Assembly (NCBI GenBank): GCA_964016885.1
Contig: OZ024747.1
Coordinates: forward strand, 46,314,001 to 46,378,000
Origin: Eledone cirrhosa
Taxonomy: Eukaryota
Length of the DNA: 64,000 nucleotides
Direction of reading: 5' to 3'
Shown: positions 8,224 through 47,684 of the stretch, in pieces
Layout of the letters: each line of letters opens with the position of its first letter
Position numbering within the stretch: the stretch's first letter is position 1
Notes under the pieces: model-generated
Database searches by the model: none
What the model was told of the DNA's origin: nothing
What the model saw: the letters and a program-made list of their open reading frames with translations, nothing else
Made by a program: the position numbers and the translations under genes

Positions 8224-8357
8224 CATCATTTCTGAAGACAGCATCTATATGTGAAGGTATGTATATTTCCTCTGATAGTTTGTAATATTGTTACATAGAT
8301 CTATATGATATACATACCAACACACATATATATCCTAGAAACGATCGTAAAATGATG
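8224..8357 (+). ncRNA. Type I hammerhead ribozyme with long stem II
   Basis: Stem I catcattt/aaatgatg (8 bp perfect); core CTGAAGA 8232-8238; long stem II including ggtatgtatat/atatacatacc and tatatgtg/cacatata; GAAA 8338; palindromic stem III ACGATCGT; cleavage triplet GUA. Confidence 0.8.
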
Positions 8358-8481
8358 AATTTTTTAATATAAGGAACTTGTTCTTTGTTTTTATTCATTA
8401 TTTTTATTAATTTATATATATATATTTCGTTTCTGAATTTGTTTAGCAAGATTCTTTATCTGAAAACGTGTGTTGAAACCG

Positions 8482-9008
8482 ATATTGTTATAATTTGGGA
8501 GGGTCATGTTGCCAATAAGAAACACACGCACCAGTTGCTTTCACTTCAATTTATTATAATAAATTTATAAATTTAGGAATTTATAAATTTCCGGTTGGTT
8601 GGTTGGTTCCACAACCAGATGGTTGTTTGTATATTGTCAAAGTTCTTTCGTCACACATTCTGTGACCTCTTCAGTCACTGGGGATTCTTTTCTTTGTTTT
8701 TGTGCTTCTTCTTTGTTCTGTCCTACGCCATCTTGTTTCTGTCACACACAGAAACAAGATGGCGTAGGAGAGAACAAAGGAGAGGCACAAAAACAAAGAA
8801 AAGAATCCCCAGTCACTGAAGAGGTCACAGAATGTGTGACGAAAGAACTTTGACAATATACAAACAACCATCTGGTTGTGGAACCAACCAACCAACCGGA
8901 AATTTATAAATTCCTAAATTTATAAATTTATTATAATAAATTGAAGTGAAAGCAACTGGTGCGTGTGTTTCTTATTGGCAACATGACCCTCCCAAAGTAT
9001 AACAATAT
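8482..9008. mobile_element. ~527-bp foldback palindrome carrying two opposed hammerheads, ending in (TA)n
   Basis: Arms 8482-8742 and ~8748-9008 are reverse complements with a few substitutions; 5-nt loop cacac. A diverged single-arm relative lies at 13320-13610. Confidence 0.95.
8812..8854 (+). ncRNA. Minimal type I hammerhead ribozyme (mirror copy on minus strand at 8636-8678)
   Basis: GTCA-CTGAAGA-G-GTCACA-gaatg-TGTGAC-GAAA-G-aa-C-TT-TGAC: stem I GTCA/TGAC, stem II 6 bp, 2-bp stem III, triplet CUU. Confidence 0.75.
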
Positions 9009-9151
9009 ATATATATATATATATATATATATATATATATATATATATATATATATATATATATGTGTGTGTGTATCTACAAACAAATATACATATGCAT
9101 GCATTCATATATTCATATATATGTTATATATATATTGTATATACATGCAAA

Positions 9152-42761: not shown

Positions 42762-45700
42762 ATATAGAAAGGATAAAAAGGACGATTGATTATTCCTTCA
42801 TTGCATTTATTGATAGGTGACGCGCGTTTCGCCACTGATCAGCTCAAGGTTCGATCTATATCGATCCTACCCGACTCAATAATCGGCAGTTCGACTGACC
42901 CTCTTAAAATGCTATAAGAAAATGAAATACATGCTATGTGGTAAAGTCAGAGTTTCAAGAGTTTGACAAAATGAGATGTTTTGATTGGTGAGAAGGATCA
43001 AGGCGATGTACTGGCCTGTAGTGTATATGGGGGTGGGTGTGATGGTGAGATGTTGGTGACGGTCTGTGGATGAGGTGGGCTGTGGTGTGGTGGTGGTGGG
43101 TTGGCCTTGGCGTGTAGAGTATGTGGGGGTGGATGTGATGATATGGTGGTGGTTAAGGTTATTTAGTGGGATGGGCTGTGGCATGAGTTTAGTGGATTGT
43201 CAGTAGACGGGTTGGCGTGTGGGCGGGGGTGTGGTAGTGGTGCCTTTGTCCATGGTAGCGGCGTTTGTGGTGGTGTGGTGGATGTATTGGTGGCGTCAGG
43301 TCCTTACATAGATACATAGTTAGACGCTCTTCGTCTGACAGATACCTTGTATATACGTATACGTACACACATATATGTATATATGTGCACATATATTGTT
43401 GTATAAACACACACAACATAAAACACATACGCACATCCTTGCCCACACATATCGGCATACGCTCACACACAGCCATATGTATATGTACACACATGTATGT
43501 GCATGCGCGCATGCGGTCACGAATATGGAGAGTGGGGGAGTATCGGTGGGGGTGGTGAACGACAGAGATGGGGGGAAGGTGAGAGGCGATGTAGAAGGTG
43601 TTTTACATATATACATACACATATATACACATGGGTATGGGCACATGGACTCACACTCATGTATGCAAGATATACACATACACACTCGCATACACGTATA
43701 CTCACACATATATATATACATATATATATATATATACACACACATGTACCGACAACACACACACATACACGCACATATACACATACATGCACACATATGA
43801 GCTCACCTACACATACAGTCAGATTTACCCATATACATATATGCAGACATACACATACACACACATACATACACATACATATATACACACACATACACAT
43901 ATGCATACACATACACACACATATATATACAGATATATATATATACACACACATAGGCATATGCATACACATGTGTTCACATTCACACACACACACATAG
44001 AGATAAATTTGCGTACACGCACGCATACTTAAGGCGCCCGTATGAGTAAAATACTTACACACAGACACACACACTATTATTGGTTGGGGAGTGGAGGTAT
44101 GTTTTGTCGGTGTTGATGAAGTATGGAGTTGTGTTTTGTGGTGGTGGTGGTGGAGTTGTGAGGGACAAACATATATATACCGGATCGAATACCGGTTAAA
44201 AGGTGACATAGGGAACGCGGGGAAAAATCGTTTATGGACGTACGGCGATGTGTGTTGTGGACATGGTGATGGTGGTGGTGCTGGGGTGATATGTTCGGCA
44301 AGATGATTACATGATCAGAGGTTACGGTGTGTTATATGGTAGGCAGACGGGGGGTGGGGGGTATATAATACAGTCGATTTGGGAGCGAGGGATGATATGT
44401 GTTGATGATGTAATGATAATGATTGTTGAAGTATGTGGATGTATTTAGTGGTGGCGGTGGTTGTGTGTGCATGCGACAGTACAGTTACAGGGTCGAATTT
44501 AGCGTGGCGTTGCAGGTTAGGGTAGATAGAGGGAACATGGGGGGATGAGGTTGTAGACGTGTATGGTAGACATATGACGATGTGTGGTGTGGTGGTGGTG
44601 GCGATGGTGTGATATGGTCGACATTGTATTTACAACCATGACCCACCATAATAATAACCACACCTGCCCCGTATCACCATCGCCCATCTCAACGAACTTT
44701 AATTCTAATCTAACTTCACTTTATCTTATTTCATTTCATTGAATTTAACCATATGTAAGCCCGTATTTTGTATATCATGCCGCATACATAACCCACACCA
44801 AAAATCACACTAACCATGACACACCATATTAATAACCACCTATACCCCGTCTCAACATCGCCCACCTCAATGAACTTATTGTATTGTACTCCATGTTACC
44901 ATCTCTAAGCCCCCATTTGTATATCATGCCGCACACATCACCATCACCACCACCAAAATTCAGATCAACACACACACCTCATAGTTGCAACATCGTATTA
45001 AATCGGTACCATATGATACGTTCTACCTTGCAATCCACAATGACAAGGGACCTTGTAAATACAATGTCGACCATATCACACCATCGCCACCACCACCACA
45101 CCACACATCGGCATGTGCATACCATACACGCCTACAACCTCAGCCCCCCATGTTCCCTCTATCTACCCTAACCTGCAACCCCACGCTAAATTCGACCCTG
45201 TAACTGTACTGTCGCATGCACACACAACCACCGCCACCACTAAATACATCCACATACTTCAACAATCATTATCATTACATCATCAACATATATCATCCCT
45301 CGCACCCAAATCGACTGTATTATATACCCCCCACCCCCCGTCTGCCTACCATATAACACACCGTAACCTCTGATCATGTAATCCTCTTGCCGAACATATC
45401 ACCCCAGCACCACCACCATCACCATGTCCACAACACACATCGCCGTACGTCCATAAACGATTATCCCCCGCGTTCCCTATGTCACCTTTTAACCGGTATT
45501 CGATCCGGTATGTATATGTTTGTCCCTCACAACTCCACCACCACCACCACAAAACACAACTCCATACTTCATCAACACCGACAAAACATACCTCCACTCC
45601 CCAACCAACAATAGTGTGTGTGTCTGTGTGTAAGTATTTTACTCATACGGGCGTCTTATGTGTGCGTGCGTGTACGCAAATTTATCTCTATGTGTGTGTG

Positions 45701-46918
45701 TGTGTATGTGAACACATGTGTATGCATATGCCTATGTGTGTGTATATATATATATATATATATATATCTGTATATATATGTGTGTGTATGTGTATGCATA
45801 TGTGTATGTGTGTGTATATATATGTATGTGTATGTATGTGTGTGTATGTGTATGTCTGCATATATGTATATGGGTAAATCTGACTGTATGTATAGGTTAG
45901 CTCATATATGTGCATGTATGTGTATATGTGCGTGTATGTGTGTGTTGTCGGTACATGTGTGTATATATATATATATATATATATATATGTGTGAGTATAC
46001 GTGTGTGCGAGTGTGTATGTGTATATCTTGCATACATGAGTGTGAGTCCATGTGCCCATACCCATGTGTATGCATGTGTATGTATATATGTAAAACACCT
46101 TCTACATCGCCTCTCACCTTCCCCCCATCTCTGTCGTTCGCCACCCCCACCGATACTCCCCCACTCTCCATATTCGTGTCTGCATGCGCGCATGCACATA
46201 CATGTGTGTACATATACATATGGCTGTGTGTGAGCGTATGCCGATATGTGTGGGTAAAGATGTGCGTATGTGTTTTATGTTGTGTGTGTTTATACAACAA
46301 TATATGTGCACATATATACATATATGTGTGTACGTATACGTATATACAAGGTATCTGTCAGACGAAGAGCGTCTAACTATGTATCTATGTAAGGACCTGA
46401 CGACCACCACAAACGCCGCTACCATAGACAAAGGCACCACTACCACACCCCCACCCACACGCCAGCCCGTCTACTGACAAACCACTAACCTCATGCCACA
46501 GCCCATCCCACTAAATAACCTTAACCACCACCATATCATCACATCCACCCCCACATACTCTACACGCCAAAGCCAACCCACCACCACCACCACACCACAG
46601 CCCACCTCATCCACAGACCGTCACCAACATCTCACCATCACACCCACCCCCATATACACTACAGGCCAGTACATCGCCTTGATCCTTCTCACCAATCAAA
46701 ACATCTCATTTTGTCAAACTCTTGAAACTCTGACTTTACCACATAGCATGTATTTCATTTTCTTATAGCATTTTAAGAGGGTCAGTCGAGCTGCCGATTA
46801 TTCAGTCGGGTAGGATCGATATAGATCGAACCTTGAGCTGATCAGTGGCGAAACGCGCGTCACCTATCAATAAATGCAATGAAGGAATAATCAATCGTCC
46901 TTTTTATCCTTTCTATAT
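42762..46918. mobile_element. 4.2-kb foldback element: ~1.87-kb arms (42762-44635, 45053-46918) and ~420-bp spacer
   Basis: Arms are highly similar reverse complements (mirror ORF pairs in the track); each outer end carries GAAACGCGCGTC plus AATAAA; the right end runs into (TA)n. Confidence 0.95.
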
Positions 46919-46951
46919 ATATATATATATATATATATATATATATATATA

Positions 46952-47684
46952 TCAAGATAAGCAGAACAAGTAAAAATTCAATCAATTTTTCAAAATAAAT
47001 CAATTAATATACAATCAAAATTAATCAAAATTAAAAAATATAATATAAATATTTACCTATTCTAATGGCCCTAACTGTACAGTTTCACGGTGCAAAACAT
47101 TAAATATCACCAGGATATTAATGGAAAAGCAACGATCATCAGAGAAGCATTTTCCTGTCCTAGGGTTAAAAACCCCAGGAACGACAAAATATATGACCTC
47201 ACTCCAACTAATACAGGTCTAAAAGGTCGTGAAAGTGACCCGTAAATACATTGGTGTATAGTGAAGGCGGGAAATCGTAGACTCGCCGTCTATAGCTCGC
47301 CACTAAAAAAAGATTTTTAGTAACTAAATATAACGACAAAATTTGTATCTCTACATATGGAGATTATTGAAAAAGGTTAATATATATCTGAGGGTACAAT
47401 GTACCCCCGGAAATATATAGTGTGTCTATGATTTAAGGTGGTTCTATGGTAATAATTTGATATACCAGAACATAATGTCAAGATAAGCAGAACAAGTAAA
47501 AATTCAATCAATTTTTCAAAATAAATCAAAATTAATATACAATCAAAATTAATCAAAATTAAAAAATATAATATAAATATTTACCTATTCTAATGGCCCT
47601 AACTGTACAGTTTCACGGTGCAAAACATTAAATATCACCAGGATATTAATGGAAAAGCAACGAACATCAGAGAAGCATTTTCCT
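46952..47684 (-). mobile_element. Retrozyme/pLTR-like element: ~205-bp direct repeats, each with a hammerhead, period 526-528, between (TA)n tracts
   Basis: Repeats at 46952-47156 and 47478-47684; no ORF of note in the interior. Confidence 0.9.
47064..47151 (-). ncRNA. Type I hammerhead ribozyme (second copy 47592-47679 has core CTGATGT)
   Basis: Minus strand: aatgcTTCT-CTGATGA-T-CGTTGC..cattaa.tatc..gata.ttaatg..GCACCG-T-GAAA-CTG-ta-CAG-TT-AGGGccatt; palindromic stem III ACTGTACAGT; triplet GUU. Confidence 0.82.

What the first reader, a model, noticed from the sequence alone, without database searches (positions are those of the whole stretch)
8224..47684. Multi-family hammerhead ribozyme system in (TA)n-embedded non-coding retro-elements
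Seen in sequence: complete or near-complete type I hammerhead folds at 8224+, 8812+/8636-, 9152+, 9405+, 12757-, 13518-, 13796-, 20437-, 35172-/35220+, 42518+/42453- and 47064-/47592-, plus 3' halves at 9498, 13.2 kb, 26.5 kb, 28.9 kb, 29.8 kb, 41.09 kb, 42.83 kb and 46.85 kb. They fall into at least six families with unrelated stems. Most have a tiny or self-complementary stem III (ACGATCGT, ATATATAT, ACTGTACAGT, ACGCGCGT) and several have a U.U or C.A pair closing stem II. Most host elements abut (TA)n. Established: minimal type I HHRs with palindromic stem III occur in Penelope-like element pseudo-LTRs and metazoan retrozymes, and can cleave as dimers; some PLE clades target microsatellites. 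Inference: this genome carries a dense, diverse population of PLE-mobilised non-autonomous ribozyme elements, and a PLE RT relic sits at 5.9 kb.
Basis: partly seen in the sequence, partly recalled or inferred. Interest (0 to 1): 0.92.

Follow-up and report, generated by a model that had tools for sequence, protein, structure and literature searches.

The report
Ribozyme ends of Penelope jumping genes
These hammerhead ribozyme motifs are real, but most are the short, often hairpin-shaped tail ends left by several families of Penelope-like jumping genes that insert into TA repeats, plus two small non-coding hitch-hiker families, so they are a known kind of element in very high numbers.

Summary
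Hammerhead folds are far above chance (7 vs 0.43 per shuffle) and one family shows stem II covariation. Eight families (A1, A2, B1, B2, C, D, E, I) are pseudo-LTR ends of protein-coding Penelope-like elements (PLEs) found elsewhere in this genome: Hydra-clade-like (A, C, D, E, I) or Neptune/Nematis-like (B). Window copies are 5'-truncated, mostly inverted, probably dead. Only H (526-nt tandem unit) and probably G are ORF-free retrozymes; J, K, M and the 41.09-kb half have no proven parent. Copy numbers are large (D: 49,283 exact matches; about 16,000 tiny palindromes). Each family has two fixed 3' ends at (TA)n, the published PLE 'tail'. Less expected: C and D truncations pile up in a 10-20-nt zone at the ribozyme, on initiator-like motifs, and 8 of 79 inverted pairs have non-overlapping arms. 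That points to two priming events, possibly running off the transcript's 5' end (inferred, untested). No cleavage or RNA data. The scan noted a similar reading on another genome (e1-7788964).

The parts
5777..6124 (+). Broken PLE reverse transcriptase fragment (Hydra-like, relative of family F); no hammerhead found attached
8018..8415 (+). Family I 3' end; hammerhead 8223-8360, 9-bp stem I, about 100-nt stem II domain; short end
   Evidence: parent L230; 3,357 exact matches
8423..9008 (.). Family B1 inverted pair: long (tail) arm 8423-8741 on -, short arm 8743-9008 on +; cores 8674- and 8816+; extra nucleotide before stem II
   Evidence: ORF upstream in L182, L179
9146..9292 (+). Family J, decayed hammerhead; parent not found
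9354..9463 (.). Family C insertion with non-overlapping arms: tail-only arm 9354-9389 on -, truncated ribozyme arm 9405-9463 on +, core damaged
9492..9604 (+). Family M 3' half; complete M folds seen in L042, L082; parent not found
12673..12865 (.). Family C palindrome between (TA)n runs; intact fold on - (core 12800)
   Evidence: parent L066; 4,016 exact matches
13141..13305 (.). Family E: truncated arm 13141-13271 on -, tail-only arm 13271-13305 on +
13308..13636 (-). Family B2 3' end, core 13555
   Evidence: ORF upstream in L063
13645..13917 (-). Family G, older ORF-free tandem element (unit 426 nt in L225); core 13867
15066..15193 (-). Decayed family C copy
19389..19803 (.). Family K inverted pair, cores 19497- and 19702+; parent uncertain
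20392..20559 (-). Family A2 3' end, (TA)n on both sides; core 20487
   Evidence: endonuclease end upstream in L146, L150
26365..26540 (.). Family D palindrome folded inside loop II; both arms lack the 5' core
28833..29026 (.). Family D palindrome, same anatomy
   Evidence: parent L140
29792..29899 (+). Older family D 3' half
35091..35278 (.). Family C subfamily palindrome with changed stem I
41020..41150 (+). 3' half with I-type stem III; decayed, family unresolved
42305..42628 (.). Family A1 palindrome, cores 42502- and 42523+
   Evidence: ORF in L142, L143; A1+A2 5,999 exact matches
42659..46918 (.). One family E inverted insertion, long arm on -, short arm on +; cores changed at positions 4 and 6; no ORF hit
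   Evidence: parents L188, L189
46949..47684 (-). Family H retrozyme, 1.4 tandem units of about 526 nt, two hammerheads, (TA)n on both sides

Best explanation
The window is a (TA)n-rich nest of independent PLE insertions. Each PLE family carries its own type I hammerhead in the pseudo-LTR (shown). The PLE protein nicks (TA)n and starts reverse transcription at two fixed sites downstream of the ribozyme, giving a short and a long 3' end (ends shown here; mechanism from Frangieh 2024). Usually both DNA strands are primed, one at each site, both cDNAs stop early, and their ends are joined head to head, leaving a 190-600-bp palindrome or longer inverted repeat (inferred). These copies lack the ORF and are most likely dead. 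Families H and G are ORF-free tandem units, i.e. retrozymes, that borrow a PLE protein (ORF absence and PLE-type ends shown; borrowing inferred). The ribozyme's job is probably to cut tandem or read-through transcripts, as a dimer where stem III is palindromic (from the literature; not tested).
For: Same ribozyme on both sides of an ORF: C 713 aa (L066), D about 718 aa (L140), E (L188, L189), I (L230). ORF upstream of A1, A2, B1, B2. Hydra motifs RWR, DKT, CxCX5C, C-terminal GIY-YIG in C and D; CX4CxxC in B2 (definitions). Two 3' ends: D +43 or +121-125 in 71 of 78 arms, 72 of 78 followed by (TA)n; all 35 D-D pairs are one short plus one long end. Genome-wide D-D fold-backs 31,341 strand matches vs D-C junctions 0. 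8 of 79 short-long pairs have non-overlapping arms, which one self-copying cDNA cannot make. H: 221 exact matches, 525-527-nt period, longest ORF 33 aa, 15 of 16 distinct non-internal ends at one position followed by (TA)n. Covariation in K: 28 compensatory cells vs 9.9 +/- 3.2 shuffled, 0 of 500.
Against: No parent shown for J, M, the 41.09-kb half; K's only link (L154) may be a K copy sitting in a B1-type ORF and was left unchecked. A2 is linked by the endonuclease end only. H's ORF-free status rests on 30 of 221 matches; G on 8 loci. Two of five covariation measures were not above shuffles (238 and 500 of 500), and K copies are related by descent. No Rfam hammerhead hit. No cleavage or RNA data. 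Arms that share private variants (10 of 17 D pairs differ by <=1 nt vs 9% between pairs) fit one template but also fit later hairpin repair. Pair counts are de-duplicated imperfectly across overlapping loci.
Confidence: 0.9

Rival explanations
1. One reading: most copies are non-autonomous ribozyme elements that are themselves transcribed and re-mobilised in trans.
For: Short copies vastly outnumber ORF-bearing ones (D segment far deeper than its ORF in contigs of run X1, not a copy number). H and G are such elements.
Against: Sequence is continuous with PLE 3' UTR and ORF in long copies. D junctions are diverse: about 35 forms in about 55 loci, counted by eye from the 100 rows listed, and the common forms recur in both subfamilies. 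Most D copies lack half the ribozyme (61 of 78 end at -33..-11, core starts near -61).
Confidence: 0.08
2. Sub-question, why truncation is so sharp: reverse transcriptase starts in the upstream pseudo-LTR copy of the transcript and runs off the RNA's 5' end, so the junction marks the transcription start (a strong-stop-like cDNA).
For: C ends: 36 of 65 at -16..-26, mode -24, two at -31/-33, an initiator-like A at -25; D: 58 of 81 at -12..-22, initiator-like A at -18; A1: 7 of 20 at -154..-157; B1 near a YY1-like motif at -86 (motif names recalled). A full-length C copy also starts there (L066). Penelope transcripts start inside the pseudo-LTR (PMC2377424).
Against: Motifs were noticed after the fact and occur 1-6 times per 175 nt. 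Edges are 10 nt wide. E and A2 are diffuse. Other full-length copies start far upstream. No cap-derived G was shown. No RNA data.
Confidence: 0.4
3. Sub-question alternative: reverse transcriptase stalls at ribozyme structure, or after a fixed distance, and then joins or folds back (self-priming, as proposed by Arkhipova 2013).
For: D hotspot lies at the base of a predicted inner hairpin of stem II. C and I hotspots match the 5' edge of stem I. C and D stop about 60-66 nt from the short start.
Against: Stops are not at equivalent ribozyme positions (D mid-fold, A1 115 nt upstream, B1 60 nt upstream). 7 of 17 D junctions have no microhomology and neither arm is consistently longer (5, 5, 7 ties). 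Non-overlapping arms do not fit self-priming.
Confidence: 0.4
4. Chance motifs in repeat-rich DNA.
For: No Rfam hit.
Against: (shuffles), thousands of exact copies with zero reversed-pattern controls, unrelated stems that all pair.
Confidence: 0.01

Closest known systems
Hydra-clade PLEs (Craig et al. 2021, PMC8557442)
   Same: Single ORF, C-terminal GIY-YIG, RWK-like and DKT motifs, CxCX5C linker, hammerhead in pseudo-LTR, (TA)n insertion, inverted 5'-truncated copies, tail at one end.
   Different: Described as a small number of mostly <3-kb families; here at least six families, 2.5-6 kb, up to tens of thousands of copies; tails of 60-100 nt rather than 30-40; C carries kilobases of (TA)n-rich DNA in its 3' UTR.
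PLE minimal hammerheads (Cervera and de la Pena 2014, PMC4209133)
   Same: Type I, palindromic helix III, unpaired base before helix II, U3-A8 variant, pairs 100-700 bp apart on opposite strands, solo copies from truncated PLEs.
   Different: Several families here have 40-100-nt stem II domains (D, E, G, H, I, N) and E's commonest core differs at positions 4 and 6; I did not see these in the passages read.
Poseidon PAc of Anolis (Frangieh et al. 2024, PMC11167929)
   Same: Two internal start sites define the tail; both strands cut and extended; AT-rich targets; cleavage not needed for insertion.
   Different: Other clade; start sites there lie inside the ORF, here in the 5' UTR; that paper does not treat a 5' truncation hotspot in the parts read.
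Metazoan non-LTR retrozymes (PMC7229834; bioRxiv 10.64898/2026.07.22.740005)
   Same: H and G: short, AT-rich, ORF-free tandem units with one type I hammerhead each.
   Different: H's unit (526 nt) exceeds the usual 150-450; only 1-3 units per site; it shows PLE-type fixed ends at (TA)n; no sequence match to the PLE ends sampled.
Neptune/Nematis PLEs
   Same: B2 ORF has the CX2-5CxxC linker and a CCHH-like endonuclease.
   Different: Clade not resolved; no tree built.

Membership tests
Type I hammerhead ribozyme | Conserved core around three stems, ends meeting in stem I | tested here: met
   met by about 7-9 window copies, not by damaged or half copies
Type I hammerhead ribozyme | Covariation of stems | tested here: met
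   K: 5 of 8 stem II pairs compensatory, 96.5% paired vs <=56% when slid; two measures not above shuffles; other families by eye only
Type I hammerhead ribozyme | Rfam hammerhead model at gathering score | tested here: not met
Type I hammerhead ribozyme | Self-cleavage at the predicted site | not testable with these tools
   No RNA run listed
Hydra-clade PLE (A, C, D, E, F, I) | One ORF, RT then C-terminal GIY-YIG | tested here: met
   Pfam GIY-YIG only weak (E 0.012) for C, none for D
Hydra-clade PLE (A, C, D, E, F, I) | RWK-type, DKT and CxCX5C motifs; no CCHH | tested here: met
   Motif search on C, D, F (RW[RK] pattern missed F); A, E, I and CCHH absence by eye
Hydra-clade PLE (A, C, D, E, F, I) | Insertion into (TA)n; hammerhead in pseudo-LTR; tail | tested here: met
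   A2 shows one end only (17 of 19)
Hydra-clade PLE (A, C, D, E, F, I) | Phylogenetic placement with reference Hydra proteins | not tested
   No reference set; one search gave 2,058 mostly unnamed homologues at about 40% identity
Neptune/Nematis PLE (B1, B2) | CX2-5CxxC linker and CCHH endonuclease | tested here: inconclusive
   Linker found, CCHH by eye; the two clades not separated
Non-LTR retrozyme (H, G) | ORF-free, low-GC tandem units with one hammerhead each | tested here: met
   H: 32% GC, 33-aa longest ORF, 9 of 17 distinct insertions with 2-3 ribozymes; G: 426-nt repeat in L225, no ORF hit
Non-LTR retrozyme (H, G) | Expressed as circular RNA | not testable with these tools
Non-LTR retrozyme (A, B, C, D, E, I) | No associated ORF | tested here: not met

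The most novel reading that the evidence does not exclude
The tens of thousands of minimal palindromes are twin-primed, strong-stop-like cDNAs: a PLE dimer primes both target strands at the two start sites near the transcript's 5' end, runs off that end, and the two cDNAs are joined. The ribozyme cut in the downstream pseudo-LTR would then set the RNA 3' end, giving a short terminal redundancy (about 38 nt in D) like a retroviral R region, which could explain how PLE tandems and pseudo-LTRs are rebuilt. Rare ribozyme-to-ribozyme junctions between retrozyme H and PLE families B2 or C would mark retrozymes riding on PLE dimers, and family E would have kept spreading after its core drifted.
Probability: 0.3. 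Interest if true: 0.7.

Novelty: new member of a known kind. Interest (0 to 1): 0.38.

Why it matters
As a finding it is ordinary: PLE hammerheads, inverted truncated copies, U3-A8 cores and retrozymes are all published. Its value is as a dataset. How PLEs form tandem and inverted structures is named as open in PMC8557442 and PMC2377424, and this genome holds roughly 16,000 junctions for one family plus intact ORFs (C, D) that could be used in vitro. It also shows that Hydra-like PLEs can be a major repeat class and that short hammerhead hits in such genomes should not be counted as retrozymes without checking for a parent ORF.

Tried and rejected
Rfam scans found no hammerhead; simple repeats swamp them with miRNA models. 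A DNA search of the genome with the A1 copy returned nothing because common words are skipped. An exact G pattern found only the window copy; a DNA search then gave 45 places from 40 scored of 262 candidates. Random mixing of arms from different families is rejected for D and C (0 matches); three mixed junctions without a TA run remain (A2-F L012, H-B2 L198, H-C L222) and could be sequential events. A consistent first-arm asymmetry expected from fold-back was not found (its family C part crashed). Ungapped end-mapping for E, F, B1, B2, K and M is spoiled by subfamily indels and loose patterns and was not used for those families. Sequencing-run search: no RNA holder listed; contigs cannot show transcript ends, and run X1 may be the source sample. 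No random genome sample was obtained, so density rests on exact-pattern counts and loci come mostly from the start of contig C1. K's parent was left unresolved. Pfam was not run on the LINE-like relics. Lunse et al. (PMC5785218) is not held. Supplements were not read; those of PMC8557442 list Hydra families and their hammerheads and may already include relatives or long-stem variants.
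Full report
Setting. The window is C7:46,314,001-46,378,000 of a 3.0-Gb assembly, AT-rich and full of (TA)n and (CA)n runs (150 TA runs). 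I did not determine the organism. Positions such as -24 or +43 count from the G of the GAA in the 3' half of the ribozyme core. Family letters are mine.

Observation. Every site listed is present. A strict descriptor gave 5 hits at score >=11 against 0.06 per shuffle (100 shuffles); a relaxed one 7 hits at >=15 against 0.43 (60 shuffles). Eighteen K copies keep 96.5% of proposed pairs with 28 compensatory cells against 9.9 +/- 3.2 (0 of 500 shuffles); two other measures were not above shuffles and the copies are related. Rfam found no hammerhead. About 7-9 window copies have a consensus core and three stems; the rest are damaged or halves.

Copy numbers. Exact matches in the genome, both strands, reversed-pattern controls all zero: C 4,016, A1+A2 5,999, D 49,283, E 1,547, H 221, I 3,357. 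These are lower bounds. [quoted passage not shown]

Parents. I fetched pairs of hits a few kb apart. C flanks an unbroken 713-aa ORF in L066; D an unbroken ORF of about 718 aa in L140; E broken full-length ORFs in L188 and L189; I in L230. A1 follows ORF pieces in L142 and L143, A2 the endonuclease end in L146 and L150; B2 a long ORF in L063; B1 ORF ends in L182 and L179. [quoted passage not shown] These define the Hydra clade in PMC8557442 (section 11 read in full). B2 has the Neptune/Nematis linker. No tree was built. Pfam support is weak. J, M and the 41.09-kb half have no parent in my loci; K lies 220 nt behind a B-type ORF in L154 only, which may be a B1 ORF interrupted by K, so K is open.

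Retrozymes. H differs: direct repeats of 525-527 nt, 32% GC, longest ORF 33 aa, 1-3 ribozymes per site (9 of 17 distinct insertions have 2-3), and 15 of 16 distinct non-internal ends at one position followed by (TA)n, the sixteenth being an internal copy (30 of 221 matches fetched, plus the window). One inverted arm ends at a second site about 90 nt further (L213/L215), so H has the PLE two-end signature. G is older, with a 426-nt repeat in L225 and no ORF hit. Neither matches the PLE ends sampled.

Anatomy. Families have two fixed 3' ends: D +43 and +121-125 (71 of 78 arms), C about +42 and +109, A1 +73 and +165, E +65 and +172, B1 +168 and +227; A2 shows one. 72 of 78 D arms run into (TA)n. 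All 35 D-D pairs and 18 C-C pairs join a short to a long end. This is the tail that PMC11167929 (parts 1-2 of 4 read) traced to two internal start sites; that paper also found both strands cut and extended, a predicted dimer, and no need for ribozyme cleavage in vitro.

Truncation hotspot. 61 of 78 D arms stop at -33..-11 (33 of 44 in loci not found by the D pattern); 26 of 56 C arms do (15 of 19). Genome-wide, D folded back within 30 nt gives 31,341 strand matches, about 16,000 sites; D joined to C gives 0. D's core starts near -61 and is the U3-A8 variant (natural and active per PMC3088659, seen in PLEs per PMC4209133), so most D copies hold half a ribozyme. Contigs of run X1 are 10- to several-hundred-fold deeper over this segment than upstream or over the ORF, with (TA)n loose ends at both sites (not a copy number, possibly the source sample).

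Mechanism. Arms of a pair share variants (10 of 17 within 1 nt vs 9% between pairs), neither arm is consistently longer, 7 of 17 junctions lack microhomology, and 8 of 79 pairs have a tail-only arm joined to a ribozyme arm with no overlap (window example 9354-9463). I infer two priming events on RNA from one source, then end joining, rather than the self-priming proposed in PMC3846280 (passages). Why they stop where they do is open. Stops sit on initiator-like motifs in C (-25) and D (-18), at a similar motif in A1 (-155), and near a YY1-like motif in B1 (motif names recalled, noticed after the fact), which suggests run-off at the transcription start (0.4). Stalling at structure or distance fits about as well (0.4). 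I found no paper stating the run-off or twin-priming reading for PLEs in searches, but most subscription papers are not held.

Core drift in E. Among 34 E folds, 21 have positions 4 and 6 changed, including the full-length L188 and L189; 3 have the consensus core and 1 more is a junction artefact; both window copies are further changed (loci were chosen by the 3' half). Single changes at these positions lower activity (PMC3088659, passages). E may have spread with a weak or dead ribozyme; untested.

Literature seen. PMC8557442: abstract, passages, section 11. PMC11167929: parts 1-2 of 4. bioRxiv 10.64898/2026.07.22.740005: part 1 of 5 and passages. PMC4209133, PMC7229834, PMC3088659, PMC6765202, PMC3846280, PMC2377424: passages only. 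Lunse et al.: only through PMC6765202. No supplements. PMC4209133 already reports opposite-strand ribozyme pairs 100-700 bp apart and solo copies from truncated PLEs.

Verdict. Real, abundant, and a known kind: new families of PLE pseudo-LTR hammerheads and retrozymes. The sharp truncation zone and non-overlapping arms are a useful lead on an open question of PLE mechanism. Interest 0.38.

Noticed in passing
L066:2330-5964; L062: Family C carries a 3.6-kb 3' UTR with 45 (TA)n runs (1,550 of 3,634 nt simple repeat), copied into both arms of inverted insertions. It may seed its own target sites.
   Followed up: partly
L067, L068 (C1 near 83.68 Mb): Head-to-tail array of C pseudo-LTRs with a period of about 1.08 kb, 11 listed matches: a retrozyme-like array arising from a PLE end, or local duplication.
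   Followed up: no
L012:543, L198:1551, L222:2060: Head-to-head junctions between different families with no TA run (A2-F, H-B2, H-C), each partner cut at its ribozyme.
   Followed up: partly
window 9254+, 12723-, 28889-, 35140-: A 10-nt motif is shared by the tails of unrelated families J, C and D; possible protein-binding or start signal.
   Followed up: no
window 17981-19300 (-): LINE-type RT relic in two frames, RTE-like by eye (label recalled).
   Followed up: no
window 41164-41959 (+): GC-rich broken ORF that looks like the restriction-type endonuclease end of a non-LTR element (label recalled).
   Followed up: no
window 20147-20218 (+): tRNA match at 49.7 bits, possibly a SINE head.
   Followed up: no
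window 4569 (-) and 58133 (-): A decayed fold without stem I and a lone A-like 5' half; no relatives among my loci.
   Followed up: partly
window 5166-5251, 5485-5514, 5537-5617: Tail fragments of families K2, F and D just upstream of the RT relic.
   Followed up: no
L020, L067, L074, L151: A further hammerhead family (N) with a long stem II, not in the window's list.
   Followed up: no
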